NCBI GenBank assembly: GCA_964016885.1
Contig: OZ024745.1
Span: 91,574,001 to 91,638,000 of the forward strand
Direction: 5' to 3'
Length of the DNA: 64,000 bases
Origin: Eledone cirrhosa
Taxonomy: Eukaryota
Part shown: positions 33,001 to 64,000 of the stretch, piece by piece
Position numbering within the stretch: position 1 is the first letter of the stretch
Layout of the letters: the number at the start of each line of letters is the position of its first letter
Program-made: the position numbers and the translations under genes
Notes under the pieces: generated by a model
Seen by the model: the letters and a program-made list of their open reading frames with translations, nothing else
The model's database searches: none
What the model was told of the DNA's origin: nothing

Positions 33001-33730
33001 ACTAGATACAGTAAGTTATATTACTCTGCCTGAGTATCAAACAGCTCCACTAGATACAGTAAGTTATATTACTCTGCCTGAGTATCAAACAGCTCCACTA
33101 GATACAGTAAGTTATATTACTCTGTCTGAGTATCAAACAGCTCCACTAGATACAGTAAGTTATATTACTCTGCCTGAGTATCAAACAGCTCCACTAGATA
33201 CAGTAAGTTATATTACTCTGTCTGAGTATCAAACAGCTCCCCTAGATACAGTAAGTTATATTACTCTGTCTGAGTATCAAACATCTCCCCTAGATACAGT
33301 AAGTTATATTACTCTGCCTGAGTATCAGACAGCTCCACTAGATACAGTAAGTTATATTACTCTGTCTGAGTATCAAACAGCTCCACTAGATACAGTAAGT
33401 TATATTACTCTGTCTGAGTATCAAACACCTCCACTAGATACAGTAAGTTATATTACTCTGTCTGAGTATCAAACAGCTCCACTAGATACAGTAAGTTATA
33501 TTACCCTGTCTGAGTATCAAACAGCTCCACTAGATACAGTAAGTTATATTACTCTGTCTGAGTATCAAACAGCTCCACTAGATACAGTAAGTTATATTAC
33601 TCTGTCTGAGTATCAAACACCTCCACTAGATACAGTAAGTTATATTACTCTGTCTGAGTATCAAACAGCTCCACTAGATACAGTAAGTTATATTACTCTG
33701 TCTGAGTATCAAACAGCTCCACTAGATACA
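1..33730. repeat. 48-bp satellite array, left domain (~700 monomers; continues beyond window start)
   Basis: Uninterrupted tandem copies of CAAACAGCTCCACTAGATACAGTAAGTTATATTACTCTGTCTGAGTAT with sparse recurrent substitutions (TCT/CCT, AGCT/ACCT, CTAG/CTAC, CCAC/CCCC) and occasional 44-bp monomers. Confidence 0.99.
33726..33730 (+). repeat. Target-site duplication ATACA, left copy (LINE copy 1)
   Basis: The satellite reads ...CTAG-ATACA then switches to TCATCATCATCA; ATACA recurs at 37427-37431 where the satellite resumes. The terminal CA is ambiguous with the (CAT)n tail, so the TSD is 3-5 bp. Confidence 0.8.
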
Positions 33731-33742
33731 TCATCATCATCA
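33731..33742 (-). repeat. (TGA)n / (CAT)n 3' tail of LINE copy 1
   Basis: TCATCATCATCA on the + strand, directly at the satellite junction. Confidence 0.9.
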
Positions 33743-33753
33743 CCGTTTTACGT

Positions 33754-33784
33754 CCGTTCTTCCACGCTAGCATGGGTTAGACGG
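33754..33784 (-). other. Predicted 3'-terminal RNA stem-loop of the LINE
   Basis: Near-palindrome CCACGCTAGCATGG (33762-33775) flanked by CCGTTCT / AGACGG, ~12 nt from the tail. A stem-loop next to the tail is the known RT-recognition arrangement in stringent-type LINEs. Function is inferred. Confidence 0.55.
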
Positions 33785-33891
33785 GTTGTCCTGTTGTGGG
33801 CAGTGTCTGGTCGGCTGACCATGCCTTGCTCATACAGGAACTGATCTGGCTTGATTTCTACAGCTGGATGCCCTTCCTAACACCAACCTCA

Positions 33892-33981
33892 TTTACAGTG
33901 AGTGCTGGGTGCTTTTTCGTGGCGCCTACACGTCCACTTTACAGTGTGGGCTGGGTGCTTTTTTGCCGTGGCACCTCCACG
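33892..33981. repeat. Imperfect ~46-bp direct repeat in the LINE 3' UTR
   Basis: TTTACAGTGAGTGCTGGGTGCTTTTTCGTGGCGCCTACACG (33892-33932) and TTTACAGTGTGGGCTGGGTGCTTTTTTGCCGTGGCACCTCCACG (33938-33981). Confidence 0.85.
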
Positions 33982-34023
33982 ACCACCTTGCGGTGGGGGG
34001 GGGGGGCATATTGTTTATATGCT

Positions 34024-37000
34024 TCAGCATGTACCCATGGGAGGTCGGGTACCCTGTATTACTGCGTGACGCCAGAAGTCACGGTCGTGTGTCATTGACT
34101 TTGAGAGGTGTAGTTGGGTAAGGTCGGCTTTTATCACCTCATCCCAAGTCATCTTGGGTCTCCCCACTCCGCGGTTTCCATCAACTTCTAGTGCTCTGCA
34201 CCTTTTTATGCAGCTGTCATCCTTCATACGCATCACATGTCCATACCAGCGTAACCGCCTCTCCTGCACGCAGCATTTGATTCCTCTTATGCTCAGTCTC
34301 TCTCTCAATTCATTTATGCTTTGTCGTTCACGTATATTACTGTTACACATCCATCGGAGCATGCAGGCTTCGTTTCTCTCTAATCTACGTAAGTCTTCCA
34401 CCTTCAGCGCCCAGGTCTCACTACCATGCAACATCGCTGTTCGGATACACGCATCATACAGTCTGCCTTTCATTCTGAGGGAGAAGCCTTTTGCAGCTAG
34501 CAGTGGTAGTAGTTCCCTAAACTTCTTCCATCCCGTTCTTACCCTAGTTATTGTACTTTCTGAGCACCCACCTCCGTTGCTAATTCGGTCACCTAGGTAG
34601 CAGAAGCTGTCTACTGTTTCTACAGGGCCCTCCCAGAGATTGGTGGTACTTGTTTCCTGTGGCTGTTTGCTTGCTGTTTCAGCACAGCTGCTGCATGTGA
34701 ATCCTACATTCTTAATTAAGCTTCCTGAGATCCCGCTACATCTCTTGTGTACCCATTGTTTGCATTTGGGGCAAAGAATGGAGTTCCTACCTACACCTTT
34801 CCTACATACTGAGCAAGGCCATTTCCCTGAGGGGATCTGGGTTCTGTTTTCTCGTCTACTTATAAGGACCTTAGTCTTTGTCATGTTGACTTTGAGGCCC
34901 TTTCTCTCTAGTCCCTGCTTCCAGGTTTGGAATTTATTCTCTAGTTCTACCATAGATTCAGCTATGAGTGCGAGGTCATCAGCATACAGGAGTTCCCATG
35001 GGCATCCGGTCTTAAACTCCTCCGTTATTGCCTGCAGGACTATGATGAACAGGAGAGGGCTAAGAACAGAGCCCTGGTGGACCCCAACCTGTACGCTAAA
35101 TTCCTCGCTATACTCATTGCCAATCCTAACTTTGCTGACTGCTCCCCTATAAATGGCTTGTACCGCTTTCACAAGCCATTCATCTACTCCTAGTTTTCTA
35201 AGAGCCCACCAGATTACTGCACGTGGAACTCTGTCAAAGGCTTTCTCAAGGTCGACAAATGCCAAGTAGAGTGGCTTACTTTTAGCTAGGTACTTTTCCT
35301 GTAATTGCCTCACAAGGAAGAGCGCATCAGTGGTGCCTTTCCCTGGTACAAACCCAAATTGCATCTCGTCTATATTCACCCGGTCCCTAATCAGCTGTGC
35401 TATAACTCTTTCTGTTACTTTCATGACCTGGTCCATCAACTTTATACCTCTATAGTTTCCTCTATCTAGTGCATCGCCTTTACCTTTGTAGCAGTTGACA
35501 ATGATGCTACTGCACCAATCTTTTGGTATGGCCCCCTCTAGTATTACCTGGTTAACGATACGTGTGGTTATAGTGTGACCTACAGACCCAGATGCCTTCA
35601 GCATCTCGGCAGCTATACCCGATGGACCGGTTGCCTTCCCTATCTTCATATCTCTGATTGCCTTACTTACTACGCTGCCGCTGACTTGTACTGCTGGTCC
35701 CTCTATAGGGTCTACTTGGGGTAGGGTCTCTTCTTCCCATGCATTCTCCTCATTTAGTAATCTATCATAATGACTCTTCCATGCATCTTTCTTCTCAGCA
35801 CTTGTGAGGGCAAGCTCACCTTTATCATTCCGGATACACTTCTCTCCAATGACATCACAACTATCTCTGACACACTGCCTCGCAATCTTGAATACCTCCT
35901 GTTTCTGGTCCTCACGTTGTAAAACATGCTTGAATTTTCTATCCTCTGCTTCCCTCCTAGCTAAGTATACTTGTCGCCTAGCTTCCCTCTTGGTCTCTAT
36001 GTAATGTACCCTGCTCCCCCCGTTCTTCCATTCTTTCCATGCCTGTCTCTTGGCCTTGACTGCTTCATCTACCTTATTGTTCCACCACCAAGTCACTCTC
36101 CTCCTGCTTGAGGTCTTACTCCAGCCACAAACCTCATCCGTCGCCTCTAGTAAGTTATTTTTTAGGAACTCCCAGTTCTCTTCTACGTTAAATGTCTCTA
36201 TCTGTTCTTCTTTACTGTCGTAGGCGTTGAGTAAAATATCTTTAAATCTGTTACTGGTTGAGGGGACTTTCAGCTTCCAGATCTTTCTTCTCCAGGTTGG
36301 CCTCTGTTTCAGGGCTCGTCTAGTTCTGACCGTGAGGTCGCTGACAACTAAGCTATGTTGGGATGTACATTCCTCACTAGGGAAGGCTTTTGTGTTTACG
36401 ACCGTCCATCTGTCACGTCCTCTGATGAGGATAAAATCTAACTGACTAGAGTGCTCCCCTGATCTATAGGTGATCAGGTGGTTGTCGGGTTTTTTAAAGT
36501 TTGTGTTACATATCGACATGTCATTGGCGTCGCAGAATTCTAGAAGTCTGAATCCTTCCTCATTCCTTGTGCCAACTCCATGGCCTCCATGTACTCTATT
36601 GAAGCCGTCGCAGTGTTTACCTACGTGTCCGTTAAAATCTCCTGCAATGATTAGGAAGTCCTTGTCGTCTGTTAGAGCAGTAGTGTGTATTAGGGACTCG
36701 TAAAACCTATCCTTAAGTTCGTCTGGCAGCCCCGATTGGGGTGCGTAAGCTGATATTATTGTGGTAATTGTCTTATTCAGGACTAGTCTGAGTTTAATGA
36801 TTCTTGCATTTACCCTGTACACTGAGATTACTTTATCTACCCACTTGTCAGCTAATAGTATACCTACACCACCCATCCCATCGTCATTTCCCACCCAGAA
36901 AAATTTGTAGCACTGGCTTTTTCCTACAAGGACTCTAGCAGACCCTCCTCTCCATCTAGTCTCTTGCACACAGCATACATCAACTTCCTTTCGCTCTAGC

Positions 37001-37143
37001 ATTTCTACGATTTCTCCTGCTCTTCCTTTCATTGAGCCTACATTGATGGTACCAACTCGGAGTTTTGGGCATTTGTCGACACTCGTAGGGGAGGGTCTCT
37101 GGGTTGGCGCTTCACGTGGGTGCTTGGTAGCTCGCAGATTCAT
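34024..37143 (-). CDS. LINE polyprotein: APE-like endonuclease + reverse transcriptase with inserted PHD-type zinc finger (1039 aa)
   Basis: APE motifs GTINV, VQETR, SAYAP, AGDFN, LDFIL, SQH. RT motifs KATGPSG, YKGKGD..NYRGI, QFGF, FVDLEKAFD, GVHQGSVLSP, LYADD (YADD at 34975-34986), GLKVN..KTK, FCYLG. RTE-type C-terminus RRLRWYGHV..GRPK..W. No internal stops. Confidence 0.97.
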   Translation of the reverse strand: MNLRATKHPREAPTQRPSPTSVDKCPKLRVGTINVGSMKGRAGEIVEMLERKEVDVCCVQETRWRGGSARVLVGKSQCYKFFWVGNDDGMGGVGILLADKWVDKVISVYRVNARIIKLRLVLNKTITTIISAYAPQSGLPDELKDRFYESLIHTTALTDDKDFLIIAGDFNGHVGKHCDGFNRVHGGHGVGTRNEEGFRLLEFCDANDMSICNTNFKKPDNHLITYRSGEHSSQLDFILIRGRDRWTVVNTKAFPSEECTSQHSLVVSDLTVRTRRALKQRPTWRRKIWKLKVPSTSNRFKDILLNAYDSKEEQIETFNVEENWEFLKNNLLEATDEVCGWSKTSSRRRVTWWWNNKVDEAVKAKRQAWKEWKNGGSRVHYIETKREARRQVYLARREAEDRKFKHVLQREDQKQEVFKIARQCVRDSCDVIGEKCIRNDKGELALTSAEKKDAWKSHYDRLLNEENAWEEETLPQVDPIEGPAVQVSGSVVSKAIRDMKIGKATGPSGIAAEMLKASGSVGHTITTRIVNQVILEGAIPKDWCSSIIVNCYKGKGDALDRGNYRGIKLMDQVMKVTERVIAQLIRDRVNIDEMQFGFVPGKGTTDALFLVRQLQEKYLAKSKPLYLAFVDLEKAFDRVPRAVIWWALRKLGVDEWLVKAVQAIYRGAVSKVRIGNEYSEEFSVQVGVHQGSVLSPLLFIIVLQAITEEFKTGCPWELLYADDLALIAESMVELENKFQTWKQGLERKGLKVNMTKTKVLISRRENRTQIPSGKWPCSVCRKGVGRNSILCPKCKQWVHKRCSGISGSLIKNVGFTCSSCAETASKQPQETSTTNLWEGPVETVDSFCYLGDRISNGGGCSESTITRVRTGWKKFRELLPLLAAKGFSLRMKGRLYDACIRTAMLHGSETWALKVEDLRRLERNEACMLRWMCNSNIRERQSINELRERLSIRGIKCCVQERRLRWYGHVMRMKDDSCIKRCRALEVDGNRGVGRPKMTWDEVIKADLTQLHLSKSMTHDRDFWRHAVIQGTRPPMGTC
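34684..34821 (-). other. C4HC3 (PHD-type) zinc-finger coding segment inside the RT of copy 1
   Basis: WPCSVCRKGVGRNSILCPKCKQWVHKRCSGISGSLIKNVGFTCSSC has C-x2-C, C-x2-C, W-x-H-x2-C and F-x-C-x2-C spacing, matching the PHD consensus. Confidence 0.85.
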
Positions 37144-37426
37144 ATTTCATCTATTGATTCAGAGTTGCTCGTGTATTCCCAGCTCATCCATCCATAACGG
37201 TGGGAAAATTGAGGGCTAGAAGGACAGTGGTGGTGGGGTAATGGCAGGGTGTGTTGGGATGCGCCAGAGGAGGAGAGAGTTAGTTAGGCAGGTAGTAGCA
37301 GCAGCAGCAGTGGAAATGGCATGCTAGGTTTGATTGGTCGAATAGACTATGGTGGTGTGTGGGGGTGGGGGGGGGAGGGAAATTGTGAGGTAGGAACTGA
37401 GGGTCGCATGGTAAATATCCAAGTTA

Positions 37427-40400
37427 ATACAGTAAGTTATATTACTCTGTCTGAGTATCAAACAGCTCCACTAGATACAGTAAGTTATATTACTCTGCCT
37501 GAGTATCAAACAGCTCCACTAGATACAGTAAGTTATATTACTCTGCCTGAGTATCAAACAGCTCCACTAGATACAGTAAGTTATATTACTCTGTCTGAGT
37601 ATCAAACACCTCCACTAGATACAGTAAGTTATATTACTCTGCCTGAGTATCAAACAGCTCCATTAGATACAGTAAGTTATATTACTCTGCCTGAGTATCA
37701 AACAGCTCCACTAGATACAGTAAGTTATATTACTCTGTCTGAGTATCAAACAGCTCCACTAGATACAGTAAGTTATATTACTCTGTCTGAGTATCAAACA
37801 GCTACACTAGATACAGTAAGTTATATTACTCTGCCTGAGTATCAAACAGCTCCACTAGATACAGTAAGTTAATTTACTCTGTCTGAGTATCAAATAGCTC
37901 CACTAGATACAGTAAGTTATATTACTCTGTCTGAGTATCAAACAGCTCCACTAGATACAGTAAGTTATATTACTCTGCCTGAGTATCAAACAGCTCCACT
38001 AGATACAGTAAGTTATATTACTCTGCCTGAGTATCAAATAGCTTCACTAGATACAGTAAGTTATATTACACTGCCTGAGTATCAAACAGCTCCACTAGGT
38101 ACAGTAAGTTATATTACTCTGCCTGAGTATCAAATAGCTTCACTAGATACAGTAAGTTATATTACACTGCCTGAGTATCAAACAGCTCCACTAGGTACAG
38201 TAAGTTATATTACTCTGCCTGAGTATCAAACAGTTCCACTAGATGCAGTAAGTTATATTACTCTGCCTGAGTATCAAACAACTCCACTAGATACAGTAAG
38301 TTATATTACTCTGTCTGAGTATCAAACAGCTCCACTAGATACAGTAAGTTATATTACTCTGCCTGAGTATCAAACAGCTCCACTAGATACAGTAAGTTAT
38401 ATTACTCTGTCTGAGTATCAAACATCTCCCCTAGATACAGTAAGTTATATTACTCTGCCTGAGTATCAGACAGCTCCACTAGATACAGTAAGTTATATTA
38501 CTCTGTCTGAGTATCAAACAGCTGCACTAGATACAGTAAGTTATATTACTCTGAGTATCAAACACCTCCACTAGATACAGTAAGTTATATTACTCTGTCT
38601 GAGTATCAAACAGCTCCACTAGATACAGTAAGTTATATTACTCTGTCTGAGTATCAAACAGCTCCACTAGATACAGTAAGTTATATTACTCTGAGTATCA
38701 AACAGCTCCACTAGATACAGTAAGTTATATTACTCTGTCTGAGTATCAAACACCTCCACTAGATACAGTAAGTTATATTACTCTGTCTGAGTATCAAACA
38801 GCTCCACTAGATACAGTAAGTTATATTACTCTGTCTGAGTATCAAACAGCTCCACTAGATACAGTAAGTTATATTACTCTGTCTGAGTATCAAACAGCTC
38901 CACTAGATACAGTAAGTTATATTACTCTGTCTGAGTATCAAACAGCTCCACTAGATACAGTAAGTTATATTACTCTGCCTGAGTATCAAACAGCTCCACT
39001 AGATACAGTAAGTTATATTACTCTGTCTGAGTATCAAACAGCTCCCCTAGATACAGTAAGTTATATTACTCTGTCTGAGTATCAAACATCTCCCCTAGAT
39101 ACAGTAAGTTATATTACTCTGCCTGAGTATCAAACAGCTCCACTAGATACAGTAAGTTATATTACTCTGTCTGAGTATCAAACAGCTCCACTACATACAG
39201 TAAGTTATATTACTCTGTCTGAGTATCAAACACCTCCACTAGATACAGTAAGTTATATTACCCTGTCTGAGTATCAAACAGCTCCACTAGATACAGTAAG
39301 TTATATTACTCTGTCTGAGTATCAAACAGCTCCACTAGATACAGTAAGTTATATTACTCTGTCTGAGTATCAAACAGCTCCACTAGATACAGTAAGTTAT
39401 ATTACTCTGTCTGAGTATCAAACAGCTCCACTAGATACAGTAAGTTATATTACTCTGTCTGAGTATCAAACAGCTCCACTAGATACAGTAAATTATATTA
39501 CTCTGTCTGAGTATCAAACACCTCCACTAGATACAGTAAGTTATATTACTCTGTCTGAGTATCAAACAGCTCCACTAGATACAGTAAGTTATATTACTCT
39601 CCCTGAGTATCAAACAGCTCCACTAGATACAGTAAGTTATATTACTCTGTCTGAGTATCAAATAGCTCCACTAGATACAGTAAGTTATATTACTCTGCCT
39701 GAGTATCAAACAGCTCCACTACATACAGTAAGTTATATTACTCTGCCTGAGTATCAAACAGCTCCACTACATACAGTAAGTTATATTACTCCACCTGAGT
39801 ATCAAACAGCTCCACTAGATACAGTAAGTTATATTACTCTGTCTGAGTATCAAACACCTCCACTAGATACAGTAAGTTATATTACTCTGTCTGAGTATCA
39901 AACAGCTCCACTAGATACAGTAAGTTATATTACTCTGTCTGAGTATCAAACACCTCCACTAGATACAGTAAGTTATATTACTCTGTCTGAGTATCAAACA
40001 GCTCCACTAGATACAGTAAGTTATATTACTCTGTCTGAGTATCAAACAGCTCCACTAGATACAGTAAGTTATATTACTCTGTCTGAGTATCAAACAGCTC
40101 CACTAGATACAGTAAGTTATATTACTCTGTCTGAGTATCAAACAGCTCCACTAGATACAGTAAGTTATATTACTCTGCCTGAGTATCAAACAGCTCCACT
40201 AGATACAGTAAGTTATATTGCTCTGTCTGAGTATCAAACAGCTCCACTAGATACAGTAAGTTATATTACTCTGTCTGAGTATCAAACAGCTCCACTAGAT
40301 ACAGTAAGTTATATTACTCTGTCTGAGTATCAAACAGCTCCACTAGATACAGTAAGTTATATTACTCTGTCTGAGTATCAAACACCTCCACTAGATACAG

Positions 40401-43400
40401 TAAGTTATATTACTCTGTCTGAGTATCAAACAGCTCCACTAGATACAGTAAGTTATATTACTCTGTCTGAGTATCAAACAGCTCCACTAGATACAGTAAG
40501 TTATATTACTCTGTCTGAGTATCAAACAGCTCCACTAGATACAGTAAATTATATTACTCTGTCTGAGTATCAAACACCTCCACTAGATACAGTAAGTTAT
40601 ATTACTCTGTCTGAGTATCAAACAGCTCCACTAGATACAGTAAGTTATATTACTCTCCCTGAGTATCAAACAGCTCCACTAGATGCAGTAAGTTATATTA
40701 CTCTGTCTGATTATCAAACAGCTCCACTACATACAGTAAGTTATATTACTCTGCCTGAGTATCAAACAGCTCCACTACATAGAGTAAGTTATATTACTCT
40801 GCCTGAGTATCAAACAGCTCCACTAGATACAGTAAGTTATATTACTCTGTCTGAGTATCAAACACCTCCACTAGATACAGTAAGTTATATTACTCTGTCT
40901 GAGTATCAAACAGCTCCACTAGATACAGTAAGTTATATTACTCTGTCTGAGTATCAAACAGCTCCACTAGATACAGTAAGTTATATTACTCTGTCTGAGT
41001 ATCAAACAGCTCCACTAGATACAGTAAGTTATATTACTCTGTCTGAGTATCAAACACCTCCACTAGATACAGTAAGTTATATTACTCTGTCTGAGTATCA
41101 AACAGCTCCACTAGATACAGTAAGTTATATTACTCTGTCTGAGTATCAAACAGCTCCACTAGATACAGTAAGTTATATTACTCTGTCTGAGTATCAAACA
41201 GCTCCACTAGATACAGTAAGTTATATTACTCTGTCTGAGTATCAAACAGCTCCACTAGATACAGTAAGTTATATTACTCTGCCTGAGTATCAAACAGCTC
41301 CACTAGATACAGTAAGTTATATTACTCTGCCTGAGTATCAAACAGCTCCACTAGATACAGTAAGTTATATTACTCTGTCTGAGTATCAAACACCTCCACT
41401 AGATACAGTAAGTTATATTACTCTGCCTGAGTATCAAACAGCTCCATTAGATACAGTAAGTTATATTACTCTGCCTGAGTATCAAACAGCTCCACTAGAT
41501 ACAGTAAGTTATATTACTCTGTCTGAGTATCAAACAGCTCCACTAGATACAGTAAGTTATATTACTCTGTCTGAGTATCAAACAGCTCCACTAGATACAG
41601 TAAGTTATATTACTCTGCCTGAGTATCAAACAGCTCCACTAGATACAGTAAGTTAATTTACTCTGTCTGAGTATCAAATAGCTCCACTAGATACAGTAAG
41701 TTATATTACTCTGTCTGAGTATCAAACAGCTCCACTAGATACAGTAAGTTATATTACTCTGCCTGAGTATCAAACAGCTCCACTAGATACAGTAAGTTAT
41801 ATTACTCTGTCTGAGTATCAAACATCTCCCCTAGATACAGTAAGTTATATTACTCTGCCTGAGTATCAAACAGCTCCACTAGATACAGTAAGTTATATTA
41901 CTCTGTCTGAGTATCAAACAGCTCCACTACATACAGTAAGTTATATTACTCTGTCTGAGTATCAAACACCTCCACTAGATACAGTAAGTTATATTACCCT
42001 GTCTGAGTATCAAACAGCTCCACTAGATACAGTAAGTTATATTACTCTGTCTGAGTATCAAACAGCTCCACTAGATACAGTAAGTTATATTACTCTGTCT
42101 GAGTATCAAACAGCTCCACTAGATACAGTAAGTTATATTACTCTGTCTGAGTATCAAACAGCTCCACTAGATACAGTAAGTTATATTACTCTGTCTGAGT
42201 ATCAAACAGCTCCACTAGATACAGTAAATTATATTACTCTGTCTGAGTATCAAACACCTCCACTAGATACAGTAAGTTATATTACTCTGTCTGAGTATCA
42301 AACAGCTCCACTAGATACAGTAAGTTATATTACTCTCCCTGAGTATCAAACAGCTCCACTAGATACAGTAAGTTATATTACTCTGTCTGAGTATCAAATA
42401 GCTCCACTAGATACAGTAAGTTATATTACTCTGCCTGAGTATCAAACAGCTCCACTACATACAGTAAGTTATATTACTCTGCCTGAGTATCAAACAGCTC
42501 CACTACATACAGTAAGTTATATTACTCCACCTGAGTATCAAACAGCTCCACTAGATACAGTAAGTTATATTACTCTGTCTGAGTATCAAACACCTCCACT
42601 AGATACAGTAAGTTATATTACTCTGTCTGAGTATCAAACAGCTCCACTAGATACAGTAAGTTATATTACTCTGTCTGAGTATCAAACACCTCCACTAGAT
42701 ACAGTAAGTTATATTACTCTGTCTGAGTATCAAACAGCTCCACTAGATACAGTAAGTTATATTACTCTGTCTGAGTATCAAACAGCTCCACTAGATACAG
42801 TAAGTTATATTACTCTGTCTGAGTATCAAACAGCTCCACTAGATACAGTAAGTTATATTACTCTGTCTGAGTATCAAACAGCTCCACTAGATACAGTAAG
42901 TTATATTACTCTGCCTGAGTATCAAACAGCTCCACTAGATACAGTAAGTTATATTGCTCTGTCTGAGTATCAAACAGCTCCACTAGATACAGTAAGTTAT
43001 ATTACTCTGTCTGAGTATCAAACAGCTCCACTAGATACAGTAAGTTATATTACTCTGTCTGAGTATCAAACAGCTCCACTAGATACAGTAAGTTATATTA
43101 CTCTGTCTGAGTATCAAACACCTCCACTAGATACAGTAAGTTATATTACTCTGTCTGAGTATCAAACAGCTCCACTAGATACAGTAAGTTATATTACTCT
43201 GTCTGAGTATCAAACAGCTCCACTAGATACAGTAAGTTATATTACTCTGTCTGAGTATCAAACAGCTCCACTAGATACAGTAAATTATATTACTCTGTCT
43301 GAGTATCAAACACCTCCACTAGATACAGTAAGTTATATTACTCTGTCTGAGTATCAAACAGCTCCACTAGATACAGTAAGTTATATTACTCTCCCTGAGT

Positions 43401-52578: not shown

Positions 52579-55500
52579 TCAGCATGTACCCATGGGAGGT
52601 CGGGTACCCTGTATTACTGCGTGACGCCAGAAGTCACGGTCGTGTGTCATTGACTTTGAGAGGTGTAGTTGGGTAAGGTCGGCTTTTATCACCTCATCCC
52701 AAGTCATCTTGGGTCTCCCCACTCCGCGGTTTCCATCAACTTCTAGTGCTCTGCACCTTTTTATGCAGCTGTCATCCTTCATACGCATCACATGTCCATA
52801 CCAGCGTAACCGCCTCTCCTGCACGCAGCATTTGATTCCTCTTATGCTCAGTCTCTCTCTCAATTCATTTATGCTTTGTCGTTCACGTATATTACTGTTA
52901 CACATCCATCGGAGCATGCAGGCTTCGTTTCTCTCTAATCTACGTAAGTCTTCCACCTTCAGCGCCCAGGTCTCACTACCATGCAACATCGCTGTTCGGA
53001 TACACGCATCATACAGTCTGCCTTTCATTCTGAGGGAGAAGCCTTTTGCAGCTAGCAGTGGTAGTAGTTCCCTAAACTTCTTCCATCCCGTTCTTACCCT
53101 AGTTATTGTACTTTCTGAGCACCCACCTCCGTTGCTAATTCGGTCACCTAGGTAGCAGAAGCTGTCTACTGTTTCTACAGGGCCCTCCCAGAGATTGGTG
53201 GTACTTGTTTCCTGTGGCTGTTTGCTTGCTGTTTCAGCACAGCTGCTGCATGTGAATCCTACATTCTTAATTAAGCTTCCTGAGATCCCGCTACATCTCT
53301 TGTGTACCCATTGTTTGCATTTGGGGCAAAGAATGGAGTTCCTACCTACACCTTTCCTACATACTGAGCAAGGCCATTTCCCTGAGGGGATCTGGGTTCT
53401 GTTTTCTCGTCTACTTATAAGGACCTTAGTCTTTGTCATGTTGACTTTGAGGCCCTTTCTCTCTAGTCCCTGCTTCCAGGTTTGGAATTTATTCTCTAGT
53501 TCTACCATAGATTCAGCTATGAGTGCGAGGTCATCAGCATACAGGAGTTCCCATGGGCATCCGGTCTTAAACTCCTCCGTTATTGCCTGCAGGACTATGA
53601 TGAACAGGAGAGGGCTAAGAACAGAGCCCTGGTGGACCCCAACCTGTACGCTAAATTCCTCGCTATACTCATTGCCAATCCTAACTTTGCTGACTGCTCC
53701 CCTATAAATGGCTTGTACCGCTTTCACAAGCCATTCATCTACTCCTAGTTTTCTAAGAGCCCACCAGATTACTGCACGTGGAACTCTGTCAAAGGCTTTC
53801 TCAAGGTCGACAAATGCCAAGTAGAGTGGCTTACTTTTAGCTAGGTACTTTTCCTGTAATTGCCTCACAAGGAAGAGCGCATCAGTGGTGCCTTTCCCTG
53901 GTACAAACCCAAATTGCATCTCGTCTATATTCACCCGGTCCCTAATCAGCTGTGCTATAACTCTTTCTGTTACTTTCATGACCTGGTCCATCAACTTTAT
54001 ACCTCTATAGTTTCCTCTATCTAGTGCATCGCCTTTACCTTTGTAGCAGTTGACAATGATGCTACTGCACCAATCTTTTGGTATGGCCCCCTCTAGTATT
54101 ACCTGGTTAACGATACGTGTGGTTATAGTGTGACCTACAGACCCAGATGCCTTCAGCATCTCGGCAGCTATACCCGATGGACCGGTTGCCTTCCCTATCT
54201 TCATATCTCTGATTGCCTTACTTACTACGCTGCCGCTGACTTGTACTGCTGGTCCCTCTATAGGGTCTACTTGGGGTAGGGTCTCTTCTTCCCATGCATT
54301 CTCCTCATTTAGTAATCTATCATAATGACTCTTCCATGCATCTTTCTTCTCAGCACTTGTGAGGGCAAGCTCACCTTTATCATTCCGGATACACTTCTCT
54401 CCAATGACATCACAACTATCTCTGACACACTGCCTCGCAATCTTGAATACCTCCTGTTTCTGGTCCTCACGTTGTAAAACATGCTTGAATTTTCTATCCT
54501 CTGCTTCCCTCCTAGCTAAGTATACTTGTCGCCTAGCTTCCCTCTTGGTCTCTATGTAATGTACCCTGCTCCCCCCGTTCTTCCATTCTTTCCATGCCTG
54601 TCTCTTGGCCTTGACTGCTTCATCTACCTTATTGTTCCACCACCAAGTCACTCTCCTCCTGCTTGAGGTCTTACTCCAGCCACAAACCTCATCCGTCGCC
54701 TCTAGTAAGTTATTTTTTAGGAACTCCCAGTTCTCTTCTACGTTAAATGTCTCTATCTGTTCTTCTTTACTGTCGTAGGCGTTGAGTAAAATATCTTTAA
54801 ATCTGTTACTGGTTGAGGGGACTTTCAGCTTCCAGATCTTTCTTCTCCAGGTTGGCCTCTGTTTCAGGGCTCGTCTAGTTCTGACCGTGAGGTCGCTGAC
54901 AACTAAGCTATGTTGGGATGTACATTCCTCACTAGGGAAGGCTTTTGTGTTTACGACCGTCCATCTGTCACGTCCTCTGATGAGGATAAAATCTAACTGA
55001 CTAGAGTGCTCCCCTGATCTATAGGTGATCAGGTGGTTGTCGGGTTTTTTAAAGTTTGTGTTACATATCGACATGTCATTGGCGTCGCAGAATTCTAGAA
55101 GTCTGAATCCTTCCTCATTCCTTGTGCCAACTCCATGGCCTCCATGTACTCTATTGAAGCCGTCGCAGTGTTTACCTACGTGTCCGTTAAAATCTCCTGC
55201 AATGATTAGGAAGTCCTTGTCGTCTGTTAGAGCAGTAGTGTGTATTAGGGACTCGTAAAACCTATCCTTAAGTTCGTCTGGCAGCCCCGATTGGGGTGCG
55301 TAAGCTGATATTATTGTGGTAATTGTCTTATTCAGGACTAGTCTGAGTTTAATGATTCTTGCATTTACCCTGTACACTGAGATTACTTTATCTACCCACT
55401 TGTCAGCTAATAGTATACCTACACCACCCATCCCATCGTCATTTCCCACCCAGAAAAATTTGTAGCACTGGCTTTTTCCTACAAGGACTCTAGCAGACCC

Positions 55501-55698
55501 TCCTCTCCATCTAGTCTCTTGCACACAGCATACATCAACTTCCTTTCGCTCTAGCATTTCTACGATTTCTCCTGCTCTTCCTTTCATTGAGCCTACATTG
55601 ATGGTACCAACTCGGAGTTTTGGGCATTTGTCGACACTCGTAGGGGAGGGTCTCTGGGTTGGCGCTTCACGTGGGTGCTTGGTAGCTCGCAGATTCAT
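52579..55698 (-). CDS. LINE polyprotein APE-RT with PHD insertion (1039 aa), identical to 34024-37143
   Basis: The ORF-track translation appears identical to copy 1; offset 18555 bp. Confidence 0.97.
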   Translation of the reverse strand: MNLRATKHPREAPTQRPSPTSVDKCPKLRVGTINVGSMKGRAGEIVEMLERKEVDVCCVQETRWRGGSARVLVGKSQCYKFFWVGNDDGMGGVGILLADKWVDKVISVYRVNARIIKLRLVLNKTITTIISAYAPQSGLPDELKDRFYESLIHTTALTDDKDFLIIAGDFNGHVGKHCDGFNRVHGGHGVGTRNEEGFRLLEFCDANDMSICNTNFKKPDNHLITYRSGEHSSQLDFILIRGRDRWTVVNTKAFPSEECTSQHSLVVSDLTVRTRRALKQRPTWRRKIWKLKVPSTSNRFKDILLNAYDSKEEQIETFNVEENWEFLKNNLLEATDEVCGWSKTSSRRRVTWWWNNKVDEAVKAKRQAWKEWKNGGSRVHYIETKREARRQVYLARREAEDRKFKHVLQREDQKQEVFKIARQCVRDSCDVIGEKCIRNDKGELALTSAEKKDAWKSHYDRLLNEENAWEEETLPQVDPIEGPAVQVSGSVVSKAIRDMKIGKATGPSGIAAEMLKASGSVGHTITTRIVNQVILEGAIPKDWCSSIIVNCYKGKGDALDRGNYRGIKLMDQVMKVTERVIAQLIRDRVNIDEMQFGFVPGKGTTDALFLVRQLQEKYLAKSKPLYLAFVDLEKAFDRVPRAVIWWALRKLGVDEWLVKAVQAIYRGAVSKVRIGNEYSEEFSVQVGVHQGSVLSPLLFIIVLQAITEEFKTGCPWELLYADDLALIAESMVELENKFQTWKQGLERKGLKVNMTKTKVLISRRENRTQIPSGKWPCSVCRKGVGRNSILCPKCKQWVHKRCSGISGSLIKNVGFTCSSCAETASKQPQETSTTNLWEGPVETVDSFCYLGDRISNGGGCSESTITRVRTGWKKFRELLPLLAAKGFSLRMKGRLYDACIRTAMLHGSETWALKVEDLRRLERNEACMLRWMCNSNIRERQSINELRERLSIRGIKCCVQERRLRWYGHVMRMKDDSCIKRCRALEVDGNRGVGRPKMTWDEVIKADLTQLHLSKSMTHDRDFWRHAVIQGTRPPMGTC
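53239..53376 (-). other. C4HC3 (PHD-type) zinc-finger coding segment inside the RT of copy 2
   Basis: Same Cys/His spacing as copy 1. Confidence 0.85.
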
Positions 55699-55981
55699 AT
55701 TTCATCTATTGATTCAGAGTTGCTCGTGTATTCCCAGCTCATCCATCCATAACGGTGGGAAAATTGAGGGCTAGAAGGACAGTGGTGGTGGGGTAATGGC
55801 AGGGTGTGTTGGGATGCGCCAGAGGAGGAGAGAGTTAGTTAGGCAGGTAGTAGCAGCAGCAGCAGTGGAAATGGCATGCTAGGTTTGATTGGTCGAATAG
55901 ACTATGGTGGTGTGTGGGGGTGGGGGGGGGAGGGAAATTGTGAGGTAGGAACTGAGGGTCGCATGGTAAATATCCAAGTTA

Positions 55982-58900
55982 ATACAGTAAGTTATATTAC
56001 TCTGTCTGAGTATCAAACAGCTCCACTAGATACAGTAAGTTATATTACTCTGCCTGAGTATCAAACAGCTCCACTAGATACAGTAAGTTATATTACTCTG
56101 CCTGAGTATCAAACAGCTCCACTAGATACAGTAAGTTATATTACTCTGTCTGAGTATCAAACACCTCCACTAGATACAGTAAGTTATATTACTCTGCCTG
56201 AGTATCAAACAGCTCCATTAGATACAGTAAGTTATATTACTCTGCCTGAGTATCAAACAGCTCCACTAGATACAGTAAGTTATATTACTCTGTCTGAGTA
56301 TCAAACAGCTCCACTAGATACAGTAAGTTATATTACTCTGTCTGAGTATCAAACAGCTACACTAGATACAGTAAGTTATATTACTCTGCCTGAGTATCAA
56401 ACAGCTCCACTAGATACAGTAAGTTAATTTACTCTGTCTGAGTATCAAATAGCTCCACTAGATACAGTAAGTTATATTACTCTGTCTGAGTATCAAACAG
56501 CTCCACTAGATACAGTAAGTTATATTACTCTGCCTGAGTATCAAACAGCTCCACTAGATACAGTAAGTTATATTACTCTGCCTGAGTATCAAATAGCTTC
56601 ACTAGATACAGTAAGTTATATTACACTGCCTGAGTATCAAACAGCTCCACTAGGTACAGTAAGTTATATTACTCTGCCTGAGTATCAAATAGCTTCACTA
56701 GATACAGTAAGTTATATTACACTGCCTGAGTATCAAACAGCTCCACTAGGTACAGTAAGTTATATTACTCTGCCTGAGTATCAAACAGTTCCACTAGATG
56801 CAGTAAGTTATATTACTCTGCCTGAGTATCAAACAACTCCACTAGATACAGTAAGTTATATTACTCTGTCTGAGTATCAAACAGCTCCACTAGATACAGT
56901 AAGTTATATTACTCTGCCTGAGTATCAAACAGCTCCACTAGATACAGTAAGTTATATTACTCTGTCTGAGTATCAAACATCTCCCCTAGATACAGTAAGT
57001 TATATTACTCTGCCTGAGTATCAGACAGCTCCACTAGATACAGTAAGTTATATTACTCTGTCTGAGTATCAAACAGCTGCACTAGATACAGTAAGTTATA
57101 TTACTCTGAGTATCAAACACCTCCACTAGATACAGTAAGTTATATTACTCTGTCTGAGTATCAAACAGCTCCACTAGATACAGTAAGTTATATTACTCTG
57201 TCTGAGTATCAAACAGCTCCACTAGATACAGTAAGTTATATTACTCTGAGTATCAAACAGCTCCACTAGATACAGTAAGTTATATTACTCTGTCTGAGTA
57301 TCAAACACCTCCACTAGATACAGTAAGTTATATTACTCTGTCTGAGTATCAAACAGCTCCACTAGATACAGTAAGTTATATTACTCTGTCTGAGTATCAA
57401 ACAGCTCCACTAGATACAGTAAGTTATATTACTCTGTCTGAGTATCAAACAGCTCCACTAGATACAGTAAGTTATATTACTCTGTCTGAGTATCAAACAG
57501 CTCCACTAGATACAGTAAGTTATATTACTCTGCCTGAGTATCAAACAGCTCCACTAGATACAGTAAGTTATATTACTCTGTCTGAGTATCAAACAGCTCC
57601 CCTAGATACAGTAAGTTATATTACTCTGTCTGAGTATCAAACATCTCCCCTAGATACAGTAAGTTATATTACTCTGCCTGAGTATCAAACAGCTCCACTA
57701 GATACAGTAAGTTATATTACTCTGTCTGAGTATCAAACAGCTCCACTACATACAGTAAGTTATATTACTCTGTCTGAGTATCAAACACCTCCACTAGATA
57801 CAGTAAGTTATATTACCCTGTCTGAGTATCAAACAGCTCCACTAGATACAGTAAGTTATATTACTCTGTCTGAGTATCAAACAGCTCCACTAGATACAGT
57901 AAGTTATATTACTCTGTCTGAGTATCAAACAGCTCCACTAGATACAGTAAGTTATATTACTCTGTCTGAGTATCAAACAGCTCCACTAGATACAGTAAGT
58001 TATATTACTCTGTCTGAGTATCAAACAGCTCCACTAGATACAGTAAATTATATTACTCTGTCTGAGTATCAAACACCTCCACTAGATACAGTAAGTTATA
58101 TTACTCTGTCTGAGTATCAAACAGCTCCACTAGATACAGTAAGTTATATTACTCTCCCTGAGTATCAAACAGCTCCACTAGATACAGTAAGTTATATTAC
58201 TCTGTCTGAGTATCAAATAGCTCCACTAGATACAGTAAGTTATATTACTCTGCCTGAGTATCAAACAGCTCCACTACATACAGTAAGTTATATTACTCTG
58301 CCTGAGTATCAAACAGCTCCACTACATACAGTAAGTTATATTACTCCACCTGAGTATCAAACAGCTCCACTAGATACAGTAAGTTATATTACTCTGTCTG
58401 AGTATCAAACACCTCCACTAGATACAGTAAGTTATATTACTCTGTCTGAGTATCAAACAGCTCCACTAGATACAGTAAGTTATATTACTCTGTCTGAGTA
58501 TCAAACACCTCCACTAGATACAGTAAGTTATATTACTCTGTCTGAGTATCAAACAGCTCCACTAGATACAGTAAGTTATATTACTCTGTCTGAGTATCAA
58601 ACAGCTCCACTAGATACAGTAAGTTATATTACTCTGTCTGAGTATCAAACAGCTCCACTAGATACAGTAAGTTATATTACTCTGTCTGAGTATCAAACAG
58701 CTCCACTAGATACAGTAAGTTATATTACTCTGCCTGAGTATCAAACAGCTCCACTAGATACAGTAAGTTATATTGCTCTGTCTGAGTATCAAACAGCTCC
58801 ACTAGATACAGTAAGTTATATTACTCTGTCTGAGTATCAAACAGCTCCACTAGATACAGTAAGTTATATTACTCTGTCTGAGTATCAAACAGCTCCACTA

Positions 58901-61900
58901 GATACAGTAAGTTATATTACTCTGTCTGAGTATCAAACACCTCCACTAGATACAGTAAGTTATATTACTCTGTCTGAGTATCAAACAGCTCCACTAGATA
59001 CAGTAAGTTATATTACTCTGTCTGAGTATCAAACAGCTCCACTAGATACAGTAAGTTATATTACTCTGTCTGAGTATCAAACAGCTCCACTAGATACAGT
59101 AAATTATATTACTCTGTCTGAGTATCAAACACCTCCACTAGATACAGTAAGTTATATTACTCTGTCTGAGTATCAAACAGCTCCACTAGATACAGTAAGT
59201 TATATTACTCTCCCTGAGTATCAAACAGCTCCACTAGATGCAGTAAGTTATATTACTCTGTCTGATTATCAAACAGCTCCACTACATACAGTAAGTTATA
59301 TTACTCTGCCTGAGTATCAAACAGCTCCACTACATAGAGTAAGTTATATTACTCTGCCTGAGTATCAAACAGCTCCACTAGATACAGTAAGTTATATTAC
59401 TCTGTCTGAGTATCAAACACCTCCACTAGATACAGTAAGTTATATTACTCTGTCTGAGTATCAAACAGCTCCACTAGATACAGTAAGTTATATTACTCTG
59501 TCTGAGTATCAAACAGCTCCACTAGATACAGTAAGTTATATTACTCTGTCTGAGTATCAAACAGCTCCACTAGATACAGTAAGTTATATTACTCTGTCTG
59601 AGTATCAAACACCTCCACTAGATACAGTAAGTTATATTACTCTGTCTGAGTATCAAACAGCTCCACTAGATACAGTAAGTTATATTACTCTGTCTGAGTA
59701 TCAAACAGCTCCACTAGATACAGTAAGTTATATTACTCTGTCTGAGTATCAAACAGCTCCACTAGATACAGTAAGTTATATTACTCTGTCTGAGTATCAA
59801 ACAGCTCCACTAGATACAGTAAGTTATATTACTCTGCCTGAGTATCAAACAGCTCCACTAGATACAGTAAGTTATATTACTCTGCCTGAGTATCAAACAG
59901 CTCCACTAGATACAGTAAGTTATATTACTCTGTCTGAGTATCAAACACCTCCACTAGATACAGTAAGTTATATTACTCTGCCTGAGTATCAAACAGCTCC
60001 ATTAGATACAGTAAGTTATATTACTCTGCCTGAGTATCAAACAGCTCCACTAGATACAGTAAGTTATATTACTCTGTCTGAGTATCAAACAGCTCCACTA
60101 GATACAGTAAGTTATATTACTCTGTCTGAGTATCAAACAGCTCCACTAGATACAGTAAGTTATATTACTCTGCCTGAGTATCAAACAGCTCCACTAGATA
60201 CAGTAAGTTAATTTACTCTGTCTGAGTATCAAATAGCTCCACTAGATACAGTAAGTTATATTACTCTGTCTGAGTATCAAACAGCTCCACTAGATACAGT
60301 AAGTTATATTACTCTGCCTGAGTATCAAACAGCTCCACTAGATACAGTAAGTTATATTACTCTGCCTGAGTATCAAATAGCTTCACTAGATACAGTAAGT
60401 TATATTACACTGCCTGAGTATCAAACAGCTCCACTAGGTACAGTAAGTTATATTACTCTGCCTGAGTATCAAATAGCTTCACTAGATACAGTAAGTTATA
60501 TTACACTGCCTGAGTATCAAACAGCTCCACTTGGTACAGTAGGTTATATTACTCTGCCTGAGTATCAAACAGTTCCACTAGATGCAGTAAGTTATATTAC
60601 TCTGCCTGAGTATCAAACAACTCCACTAGATACAGTAAGTTATATTACTCTGTCTGAGTATCAAACAGCTCCACTAGATACAGTAAGTTATATTACTCTG
60701 CCTGAGTATCAAACAGCTCCACTAGATACAGTAAGTTATATTACTCTGTCTGAGTATCAAACATCTCCCCTAGATACAGTAAGTTATATTACTCTGCCTG
60801 AGTATCAGACAGCTCCACTAGATACAGTAAGTTATATTACTCTGTCTGAGTATCAAACAGCTGCACTAGATACAGTAAGTTATATTACTCTGAGTATCAA
60901 ACACCTCCACTAGATACAGTAAGTTATATTACTCTGTCTGAGTATCAAACAGCTCCACTAGATACAGTAAGTTATATTACTCTGTCTGAGTATCAAACAG
61001 CTCCACTAGATACAGTAAGTTATATTACTCTGAGTATCAAACAGCTCCACTAGATACAGTAAGTTATATTACTCTGTCTGAGTATCAAACACCTCCACTA
61101 GATACAGTAAGTTATATTACTCTGTCTGAGTATCAAACAGCTCCACTAGATACAGTAAGTTATATTACTCTGTCTGAGTATCAAACAGCTCCACTAGATA
61201 CAGTAAGTTATATTACTCTGTCTGAGTATCAAACAGCTCCACTAGATACAGTAAGTTATATTACTCTGCCTGAGTATCAAACAGCTCCACTAGATACAGT
61301 AAGTTATATTACTCTGTCTGAGTATCAAACAGCTCCCCTAGATACAGTAAGTTATATTACTCTGTCTGAGTATCAAACATCTCCCCTAGATACAGTAAGT
61401 TATATTACTCTGTCTGAGTATCAAACAGCTCCACTAGATACAGTAAGTTATATTACTCTGTCTGAGTATCAAACAGCTCCACTACATACAGTAAGTTATA
61501 TTACTCTGTCTGAGTATCAAACACCTCCACTAGATACAGTAAGTTATATTACCCTGTCTGAGTATCAAACAGCTCCACTAGATACAGTAAGTTATATTAC
61601 TCTGTCTGAGTATCAAACAGCTCCACTAGATACAGTAAGTTATATTACTCTGTCTGAGTATCAAACAGCTCCACTAGATACAGTAAGTTATATTACTCTG
61701 TCTGAGTATCAAACAGCTCCACTAGATACAGTAAGTTATATTACTCTGTCTGAGTATCAAACAGCTCCACTAGATACAGTAAGTTATATTACTCTGTCTG
61801 AGTATCAAACACCTCCACTAGATACAGTAAGTTATATTACTCTGTCTGAGTATCAAACAGCTCCACTAGATACAGTAAGTTATATTACTCTGTCTGATTA

Positions 61901-64000
61901 TCAAACAGCTCCACTAGATGCAGTAAGTTATATTACTCTGTCTGATTATCAAACAGCTCCACTACATACAGTAAGTTATATTACTCTGCCTGAGTATCAA
62001 ACAGCTCCACTACATACGGTAAGTTATATTACTCTGCCTGAGTATCAAATAGCTCCACTAGATACAGTAAGTTATATTACTTTGTCTGAGTATCAAACAC
62101 CTCCACTAGATACAGTAAGTTATATTACACTGTCTGAGTATCAAACAGCTCCACTAGATACAGTAAGTTATATTACTCTGTCTGAGTATCAAACAGCTCC
62201 ACTAGATACAGTAAGTTATATTACTCTGTCTGAGTATCAAACAGCTCCACTATATAAAGTAAGTTATATTACTCTGTCTGAGTATCAAACAGCTCCACTA
62301 GATACAGTAAGTTATATTACTCTGTCTGAGTATCAAACAGCTCCACTAGATACAGTAAGTTATATTACTCCGCCTGAGTATCAAACAGCTCCACTACATA
62401 CAGTAAGTTATATTACTCTGCCTGAGTATCAAACAGCTCCACTAGATACAGTAAGTTATATTACTCTGCCTGAGTATCAAACAGCTCCACTACATACAGT
62501 AAGTTATATTACTCCGCCTGAGTATCAAACAGCTCCACTACATACAGTAAGTTATATTACTCTGCCTGAGTATCAAACAGCTCCACTAGATACAGTAAGT
62601 TATATTACTCTGCCTGAGTATCAAACAGCTCCACTAGATACAGTAAGTTATATTACGCTGTCTGAGTATCAAACAGCTCCACTAGATACAGTAAGTTATA
62701 TTACTCTGCCTGAGTATCAAACAGCTCCACTAGATACAGTAAGTTATATTACTCTGCCTGAGTATCAAATAGCTCCACTAGATACAGTAAGTTATATTAC
62801 ACTGCCTGAGTATGAAACAGCTCCACTAGGTACAGTAAGTTATATTACTCTGCCTGAGTATCAAACAGTTCCACTAGATGCAGTAAGTTATATTACTCTG
62901 CCTGAGTATCAAACAACTCCACTAGATACAGTAAGTTATATTACTCTGCCTGCGTATCAAACAGCTCCACTAGATACAGTAAGTTATATTACTCTGCCTG
63001 AGTATCAAACAGCTCCACTAGATACAGTAAGTTATATTACTCTGTCTGAGTATCAAACAGCTCCACTAGATACAGTAAGTTATATTACTCTGTCTGAGTA
63101 TCAAATAGTTCCACTAGATACAGTAAGTTATATTACTCTGCCTGAGTATCAAACAGCTCCACTAGATACAGTAAGTTATATTACTCTGCCTGAGTATCAA
63201 ACAGCTCCACTAGATACAGTAAGTTATGTTACTCTGCCTGAGTATCAAACAGCTCCACTAGATACAGTAAGTTATATTACTCTGCCTGAGTATCAAACAG
63301 CTCCACTAGATACAGTAAGTTATGTTACTCTGTCTGAGTATCAAACAGCTCCACTACATACAGTAAGTTATATTACTCTGCCTGAGTATCAAACAGCTCC
63401 ACTAGATACAGTAAGTTATATTACTCTGCCTGAGTATCAAACAGCTCCACTAGATACAGTAAGTTATATTACTCTGCCTGAGTATCAAACAGCTCCACTA
63501 GATACAGTAAGTTATATTACTCTGCCTGAGTATCAAACAGCTCCACTACATACAGTAAGTTATATTAGTCTGCCTGAGTATCAAACAGCTCCACTACATA
63601 CAGTAAGTTATATTACTCCGCCTGAGTATCAAACAGCTCCACTAGATATAGTAAGTTATATTACTCTGTCTGAGTATCATACACCTCCACTAGATACAGT
63701 AAGTTATATTACTCTGTCTGAGTATCAAACAGCTCCACTAGATACAGTAAGTTATATTACTCTGTCTGAGTATCAAACACCTCCACTAGATACAGTAAGT
63801 TATATTACTCTGTCTGAGTATCAAACAGCTCCACTAGATACAGTAAGTTATATTACTCTGCCTGAGTATCAAACAGCTCCACTAGATACAGTAAGTTATA
63901 TTACTCTGTCTGAGTATCAAACACCTCCACTAGATACAGTAAGTTATATTACTCTGTCTGAGTATCAAACAGCTCCACTAGATACAGTAAGTTATATTAC
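55982..64000. repeat. 48-bp satellite array right of LINE copy 2 (~167 monomers; continues beyond window end)
   Basis: Same monomer; variant order is collinear with 37427-50712 apart from block indels. Confidence 0.99.

What the first reader, a model, noticed from the sequence alone, without database searches (positions are those of the whole stretch)
33620..64000. LINE + upstream satellite amplified as one 13-18 kb unit with its boundary at the LINE 3' tail: candidate retrotransposon-driven satellite expansion
Seen: both LINEs share the same TSD, tail and 5' junction. Their 5'-side (right) flanks are collinear to the window end, including the private variant GCTACACT (37804 and 56359) that I did not see elsewhere. 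Their 3'-side (left) flanks already differ ~110 bp from the tail (C at 33620 vs G at 52173) and show different variant order beyond. So these are not independent insertions of the bare element, and one breakpoint of an 18.5-kb unit falls within ~110 bp of the LINE 3' end. Inference A: a read-through transcript starting far upstream in the satellite and ending at the LINE tail was reinserted at the same monomer position (giant 5' transduction), so the LINE would copy its host satellite. Inference B: DNA-level duplication (unequal exchange or break-induced replication), possibly seeded by a nick or stall at the tail. The identical tail length and the very long cDNA that A needs favour B, but the breakpoint position needs explaining either way.
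Basis: partly seen in the sequence, partly recalled or inferred. Interest (0 to 1): 0.75.

Follow-up and report, generated by a model that had tools for sequence, protein, structure and literature searches.

The report
LINE copied passively in splice-donor satellite
The two near-identical jumping-gene copies come from one insertion that was likely carried along in an ordinary head-to-tail DNA duplication, inside a 595,000-base repeat made of about 12,000 copies of a host gene's exon end and splice signal.

Summary
The two LINEs (33731-37426, 52284-55981) descend from one 5'-truncated insertion. Both junctions occur exactly twice in the genome. The copies sit in one head-to-tail duplication whose junction maps to 52174-52239: 66 bp of satellite identity, 45-110 bp beyond the tail, not at it. 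Retrotransposon-driven expansion is not supported. The unit is 2-3% of a 595-kb array that is full of LINE-free duplications of the same scale, and no exact satellite probe hit lies outside this array. In a second satellite, 13 LINE/SINE pieces in 9 tandem duplications share flanks on both sides with evenly spread breakpoints (KS p 0.93). A preprint describes the same pattern as one integration copied by host recombination. Mis-assembly could not be tested. The more unusual feature is the host. The 48-bp monomer is the last 42 bases of exon 2 of the only AFG2B/SPATA5L1-like gene found, plus its GT donor. About 12,000 copies fill a 597.6-kb intron, and only the first donor gives a protein colinear with the homolog. 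Such repeats are known from human and lancelet genes, and this scan noted them before on other DNA (up to about 2,100 copies, unchecked).

The parts
1..64000 (+). 48-bp satellite, part of a 595,430-bp array (G000:C5 about 91,529,962-92,125,391; window-extended -44038..551391) filling intron 2 (597,641 bp) of an AFG2B/SPATA5L1-like gene. Monomer = last 42 nt of exon 2 plus 6 nt of splice donor; open frame of 16 codons in phase with the exon.
33621..52239 (.). Unit 1 of the head-to-tail duplication (18,553-bp offset to unit 2)
52174..64000 (.). Unit 2 of the duplication; continues beyond the window to window-extended 65526 (end-to-end offset 13,287 bp)
52174..52239 (.). Junction interval: 66 bp of perfect satellite identity, 45-110 bp from the LINE tail
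33731..37426 (-). LINE copy 1: RTE-like, 5'-truncated, antisense to the host gene; 4 tail repeats; flanking 5-bp repeat at 33726-33730 and 37427-37431
34024..37146 (-). Open frame of 1040 aa (stop to stop): AP endonuclease, reverse transcriptase, PHD-type finger
52284..55981 (-). LINE copy 2, identical to copy 1 except for 2 more G in a homopolymer; frame 52579-55701
39047..44545 (.). LINE-free 2736-bp tandem duplication nested in unit 1
44716..49940 (.). LINE-free repeat at 3012-bp offset nested in unit 1
37801..37808 (+). Private variant shared by both units (second copy 56356-56363)

Best explanation
One 5'-truncated LINE sits twice in this satellite because it was likely a passenger in an ordinary head-to-tail DNA duplication of 13-18 kb, likely made by out-of-register homologous repair between 48-bp monomers. 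Shown: single origin of the two copies, exact tandem geometry, junction in 66 bp of satellite identity 45-110 bp beyond the tail, further nested duplications, and the array's position in intron 2 of an intact AFG2B/SPATA5L1-like gene. Inferred order: (1) a 48-bp stretch spanning the end of exon 2 and its donor was duplicated and grew into about 12,000 copies; (2) a young LINE inserted once, antisense to the gene, at a preferred target that happens to be the donor; (3) unequal exchange or break-induced replication copied it with its neighbours; (4) the units drifted by further kb-scale events. The closeness of the junction to the tail is most likely chance. Exchange versus break-induced replication cannot be told apart here. 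The gene is predicted to be spliced at the first donor.
For: The end of unit 1 (49006-52239) equals the end of unit 2 (62293-65526) with no mismatch and no spacer. Both copies share 2 substitutions absent from at least 18 of 20 other genomic copies; the nearest other copy differs at 3 sites. The array holds 16 perfect LINE-free or nested tandem duplications of at least 20 monomers, about 240 copied blocks, one per 2.5 kb, a LINE-free 12-kb tandem unit (222095-234190 to 234143-251950) and an 8.5-kb repeat unit. Control in an 18-bp satellite on C1: 13 of 15 element pairs lie in 9 head-to-tail units of 3.8-27 kb. Their shared 3' flank is 378-12,955 bp, the breakpoint position is uniform (KS p 0.93) and the nearest-edge test gives p 0.71. 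One unit holds two oppositely oriented pieces, and one LINE is a crossover chimera of two neighbours. Precedent: 10.64898/2026.09.17.752431 section 9; in-phase tandem duplications measured in 10.1101/2025.06.02.657473 (passages). Host gene: 8 exons, all 7 introns GT-AG, 774 aa, 625 of 774 identical to a homolog and colinear across the first donor.
Against: Taken alone, a junction within 110 bp of the tail has a chance of only 0.7-1.1% (1.5-2.3% for either end), and none of the 9 control units comes that close. Two of 15 control pairs were dropped because they did not resolve as tandem units (shared 3' flank 972 and 169 bp). Four older comparisons failed exact-match chaining; they were explained afterwards as older duplicates and a chimera. 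The control comes from a different satellite, and pairs were picked by proximity. The structure rests on one assembly. No RNA supports use of the first donor.
Confidence: 0.86

Rival explanations
1. DNA-level duplication, but with the junction placed by the LINE: strand exchange or branch migration between misaligned arrays stops at the 3.7-kb heterology, or a fork stalls near the G-rich 3' UTR.
For: Junction 45-110 bp from the tail; single-event chance about 1-2%. Four control units have a junction within 207-571 bp of an insert edge. The blocking of branch migration by heterology is recalled knowledge, not tested.
Against: Nearest-edge statistic over 9 control units p 0.71, and p 0.26-0.35 with this case added. 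0.25 such close junctions are expected among the 10 units.
Confidence: 0.05
2. Assembly artefact: two haplotypes of one LINE-bearing segment were joined in tandem.
For: The units are near-identical yet differ structurally, as alleles could. No listed short-read contig bridged either LINE-satellite junction, though those lists are cut and a hole proves nothing.
Against: No N gap in 864 kb. The join has only 66 bp of overlap, too little for an overlap assembler to create without spanning reads (inference). The same nested pattern runs through the whole array.
Confidence: 0.07
3. Giant 5' transduction: a minus-strand read-through RNA of 13-18 kb was reverse-transcribed and inserted, so the LINE copies its satellite.
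For: The family is young and abundant: 150 of 150 scored hits are 100% identical in protein, from 65,164 candidates. The frame is open. Independent insertions do favour one monomer phase.
Against: The insertion site would have to coincide with the RNA's own 5' end to give an exact tandem. Unit 2 carries at least 44 bp of 3' flank, with two bases that differ from the target haplotype (52240, 52269). The tail is the same length, whereas tails run 3-8 repeats in 19 of 20 other copies and none has 4. No exact satellite probe hit lies outside this array. The host gene reads the + strand, opposite to the RNA needed.
Confidence: 0.02

Closest known systems
Transposons duplicated inside satellite arrays with identical target duplications (Anoplius Gypsy x5, Porphyrio LINE x11, Cervus retrovirus x6); 10.64898/2026.09.17.752431, passages and section 9 read
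   Same: Same-strand, near-identical copies with the same junctions in a satellite, read as one integration copied by host recombination.
   Different: Only two copies here; the array is intronic, not shown to be centromeric; the junction is mapped to 66 bp.
Satellite turnover by in-phase tandem duplication: Arabidopsis mutation lines (10.1101/2025.06.02.657473, passages); unequal exchange and break-induced replication models (PMC8997354, passages)
   Same: Kilobase indels that keep the repeat phase, simple and complex tandem duplications, nested structure.
   Different: Insertions there were 1-31 units (mean 1870 bp); this unit is 13-18 kb and holds a LINE.
Minisatellites whose first unit spans an exon-intron boundary: human F7 intron 7, 6-16, CBS, LAMIN B2, PDGF (PMC1557585, abstract and passages); lancelet 'mirages' (PMC3087553, passages)
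   Same: The monomer holds the exon end plus the donor, so the donor is reiterated in the intron.
   Different: Those cited have up to about 25 copies; this array has about 12,170 units, 11,766 of 12,007 full-length units with an intact GT. No splicing data here.
Octopus RTE-clade LINE RTE-2_OV (PMC9115989, passages)
   Same: Single long ORF with endonuclease, reverse transcriptase and a zinc finger, described as rare in RTE elements.
   Different: 1109 aa and finger called C2H2 there; 1040 aa and Pfam PHD match here. Sequences were not compared.
Drosophila gigantic satellite-filled introns, kl-3 and kl-5 (PMC6508621, PMC11207136; search listing only)
   Same: An intron of hundreds of kb filled with tandem repeat.
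   Different: Here the gene is an AAA ATPase and the repeat comes from its own splice donor.

Membership tests
LINE 5' transduction (retrotransposed flank) | New copy has its 3' boundary at the element's tail | tested here: not met
   Junction at 52174-52239, 45-110 bp beyond the tail; both telling bases are consensus, so a later one-monomer gain could mimic this
LINE 5' transduction (retrotransposed flank) | New target site with its own target duplication, unlinked to the source | tested here: not met
   Exact head-to-tail tandem, no spacer; junction patterns have 2 hits, both here
LINE 5' transduction (retrotransposed flank) | Carried sequence dispersed to other loci | tested here: not met
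   5996 of 5996 exact probe hits in this array; one exact probe only
LINE 5' transduction (retrotransposed flank) | Read-through RNA from upstream | not testable with these tools
   No RNA holder listed
In-phase tandem duplication in a satellite | Head-to-tail units joined in repeat homology, phase kept | tested here: met
   66-bp identity at the junction
In-phase tandem duplication in a satellite | Like events without the passenger element | tested here: met
   LINE-free 12-kb and 8.5-kb units, 16 perfect tandem duplications
In-phase tandem duplication in a satellite | Present in cis on real molecules | tested here: inconclusive
   Only short-read contigs available
Exon-intron boundary (splice-donor) minisatellite | First unit spans the exon end and the donor of a real gene | tested here: met
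   AAA lid exon, Pfam E 3.4e-14; best solved-structure match AFG2B; 8-exon frame
Exon-intron boundary (splice-donor) minisatellite | Donor reiterated in the intron | tested here: met
   10,420 exact 9-nt donor contexts; 11,766 of 12,007 units with GT
Exon-intron boundary (splice-donor) minisatellite | mRNA uses the most upstream donor | tested here: inconclusive
   Only homolog colinearity at residues 433/434; no RNA laid on the exon junction
RTE-clade LINE | Single ORF with AP endonuclease and reverse transcriptase | tested here: met
   upstream of longer copies lies a 98-bp tandem repeat
RTE-clade LINE | Short tandem-repeat 3' tail | tested here: met
   3-8 trinucleotide repeats in 19 of 20 copies
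RTE-clade LINE | Reverse-transcriptase phylogeny groups with RTE | not tested
   No reference set fetched; the clade name is recalled and echoed by PMC9115989
Satellite born from a LINE fragment | Monomer matches the LINE | tested here: not met
   Best match 10 nt, E 0.25; monomer matches the host exon end

The most novel reading that the evidence does not exclude
The array licenses its own growth: each added unit brings a U1-type 5' splice site, so a 598-kb intron in the only AFG2B/SPATA5L1 gene is coated with about 11,800 U1 landing sites that shield the nascent RNA from early termination, while downstream in-frame donors may add 16-residue units to the protein. That would make it a functional splice-donor satellite of extreme size rather than tolerated filler. 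Against: the GT positions are not specially conserved (ranks 29 and 11 of 48) and 5 of 6 possible stop variants occur.
Probability: 0.07. Interest if true: 0.7.

Novelty: new member of a known kind. Interest (0 to 1): 0.27.

Why it matters
The reported mechanism would have mattered, since a LINE that copies its host satellite would be a new route to satellite growth, but the evidence is against it. What remains is a clean, mapped example of passive duplication, useful as a control. The host array is of more interest. About 12,000 reiterated 5' splice sites in one 598-kb intron is several hundred times the copy numbers in the two papers read (PMC1557585, PMC3087553). It makes the 'first donor wins' scanning model testable at extreme scale with ordinary RNA-seq. 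I did not establish that it is the largest in print; searches were only.

Tried and rejected
DNA search of the genome with the LINE 3' end returned nothing because common words are skipped; uninformative. Short-read contigs: no listed contig bridged either junction; lists are cut, so no evidence either way, and depth is no copy number. No RNA holder listed. Rfam scan of the 5' region of a longer copy found nothing at gathering level, so no ribozyme is claimed. The protein atlas gave no result. A LINE origin of the monomer was rejected. A coding function for the long open frames in the satellite was rejected: the frame is inherited from the exon and stop variants occur, 5 of 6 possible. Selection on the donor GT was not seen. 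Recursive splicing was rejected: 1 acceptor-donor motif in the array. Six C1 LINE neighbour sets proved independent insertions with no shared flanks, one a tandem dimer. A tail-bounded look-alike at C1:9.145 Mb proved a crossover chimera between two LINE bodies. The literature search for giant satellite 5' transduction showed no such report among 20 of 89 listed papers (titles and abstract starts only). No supplements were read.
Full report
Observation. The window is a 48-bp satellite interrupted by two minus-strand LINEs at 33731-37426 and 52284-55981. Each has a 1040-aa frame with AP endonuclease, reverse transcriptase and a PHD-type finger. They differ only by 2 nt in a G run. Exact patterns for the tail junction and the 5' junction each hit twice in the 3.0-Gb genome, both here. 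The variant GCTACACT occurs only at 37801 and 56356 in the array, and left-flank identity ends at 33620/52173. The right flanks match in pieces, not as one diagonal: offsets 18555, 15819, 12807 and 13287, with nested 2736-bp and 3012-bp repeats and 3 substitutions.

One insertion. The family is young and abundant: 150 of 150 scored hits are 100% identical in protein, from 65,164 candidates. The window copy is 5'-truncated. At least 12 of 20 sampled copies continue upstream with the same sequence, into a 98-bp tandem repeat; that this repeat is the promoter is an inference by analogy. Tails run 3-8 repeats in 19 of 20 copies, one unread, none with 4; the window copies have 4. The two copies share 2 substitutions absent from at least 18 of the 20 others. 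Same truncation, tail and private changes make a single origin secure. Same monomer phase alone would not, since 66 tail junctions in another satellite fall on one phase. Microhomology at 5' junctions of truncated LINEs is described in PMC4245944 (abstract and passages).

The junction. With DNA right of the window, the satellite before LINE 2 (49006-52239) equals 62293-65526 without mismatch, then diverges at 52240. So the structure is an exact head-to-tail duplication, and the junction lies in 52174-52239: 66 bp of identity, 45-110 bp beyond the tail. Unit 2 therefore carries at least 44 bp of the LINE's 3' flank. The two telling bases are consensus, so a later one-monomer gain could mimic this; the exact tandem geometry is the stronger argument against retrotransposition.

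The whole array. It spans 595,430 bp. All 5996 genome-wide hits of an exact 32-nt probe lie in it. It holds only these two young LINEs and one older relative (73% identity) near its left end. The LINE-bearing unit is 2.2-3.1% of it. LINE-free duplications are everywhere: about 240 copied blocks, one per 2.5 kb, 16 perfect tandem duplications of at least 20 monomers, a 12-kb tandem unit and an 8.5-kb repeat unit.

An 18-bp satellite on C1 (7.2-9.6 Mb) holds many tail-bearing insertions. In fetched parts I measured 15 element pairs. Thirteen lie in 9 head-to-tail units of 3.8-27 kb; 8 junctions overlap by 7-25 bp and one has a 157-bp unresolved gap. Shared 3' flank is 378-12,955 bp. Breakpoint position is uniform (KS p 0.93 by element, 0.90 by unit), and distance to the nearest insert edge shows no excess (p 0.71; 0.26-0.35 with this case). 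Two pairs were dropped as unresolved (972 and 169 bp). Four older comparisons defeated exact-match chaining: one set shares both flanks at 91-93%, and one is a chimera from a crossover inside two neighbouring LINEs. One unit holds pieces in opposite orientation, which one transcript ending at a tail would not explain. For the window case alone the chance of a junction within 110 bp of the tail is 0.7-1.1%, but for at least one of 10 units it is about 0.23.

Mechanism. Shown: single origin, tandem geometry, junction in repeat homology, like events without LINEs. Inferred: out-of-register homologous repair. Unequal exchange and break-induced replication both fit (PMC8997354, passages). In-phase kb-scale duplications were measured in Arabidopsis mutation lines (10.1101/2025.06.02.657473, passages). 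Same-junction transposon copies in satellites, including 11 LINEs in a bird, are already read as one integration copied by host recombination (10.64898/2026.09.17.752431, section 9). Mis-assembly could not be tested: only short-read contigs were on hand.

What the satellite is. Notes from this scan on LINE-born satellites led me to the array's ends. The monomer does not match the LINE. The left end lies in a host exon encoding an AAA lid (Pfam E 3.4e-14; best solved match AFG2B; one strong hit in the genome). The monomer is the exon's last 42 nt plus the 6-nt donor, and the last unit runs into ordinary intron. A homolog named SPATA5-like protein 1 from Argonauta hians maps to 8 exons. All 7 introns are GT-AG, the frame is 774 aa, 625 of 774 residues are identical, and the protein is colinear across the first donor; intron 2 is 597,641 bp. 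Of 12,007 full-length units, 11,766 keep the GT. The gene reads the + strand, so the LINE is antisense, and it inserted exactly at a donor copy. Repeats of this kind are known with up to about 25 copies; in F7 the most upstream donor wins (PMC1557585), and lancelet 'mirages' do not disturb splicing (PMC3087553). Unchecked scan notes list larger cases on other DNA, up to about 2,100 copies, and satellite-filled introns to 421 kb in this genome. Use of the first donor is predicted, not shown. No sign of selection on the donors was found.

Verdict. The duplication is a known kind of event. The host array is a very large member of a known kind. Interest 0.27.

Noticed in passing
L036:5803-6003 to L069 (G000:C5:91,524,776-92,136,700): Intact AFG2B/SPATA5L1-like gene with a 597,641-bp intron 2 filled by about 12,170 copies of its own exon end and splice donor.
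   Followed up: yes
L036:6077 onward (window-extended -43923..-39727): An older related LINE (73% identity, 4.2 kb, sense to the host gene) interrupts the third monomer, so only two donors precede it.
   Followed up: partly
L036:5962-6060: At one codon the satellite consensus agrees with the homolog (QTA) where this genome's exon reads QAA, so the array may keep an older exon state.
   Followed up: no
G000:C1:7.2-9.6 Mb (L101-L102, L110-L113, L120-L159): 18-bp satellite with many LINE/SINE tails at two preferred phases and strongly one orientation per phase (64 versus 2 hits): a target preference of this family, or selection by strand.
   Followed up: partly
L133:2812-3834: Longer LINE copies carry a 5' array of 98-bp repeats, here interrupted by other sequence.
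   Followed up: partly
window 52284-52900: Words of this stretch are held at shares of 0.30-0.83 by 18 runs of 15 coded organisms. Two other organisms laid show LINE 3' pieces and a 78-nt satellite piece at low depth. Relatives, contamination or transfer not told apart.
   Followed up: partly
window 34027-37146, residues 778-821: PHD-type finger after the reverse transcriptase domain; a zinc finger is called rare in RTE elements in PMC9115989.
   Followed up: partly
L069, window-extended about 551,760-552,400: A second, unrelated tandem repeat of about 40 bp in the short remainder of intron 2.
   Followed up: no
L112-L113 (G000:C1:8,882,220-8,887,438): Two young LINE copies directly head to tail with no spacer.
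   Followed up: no
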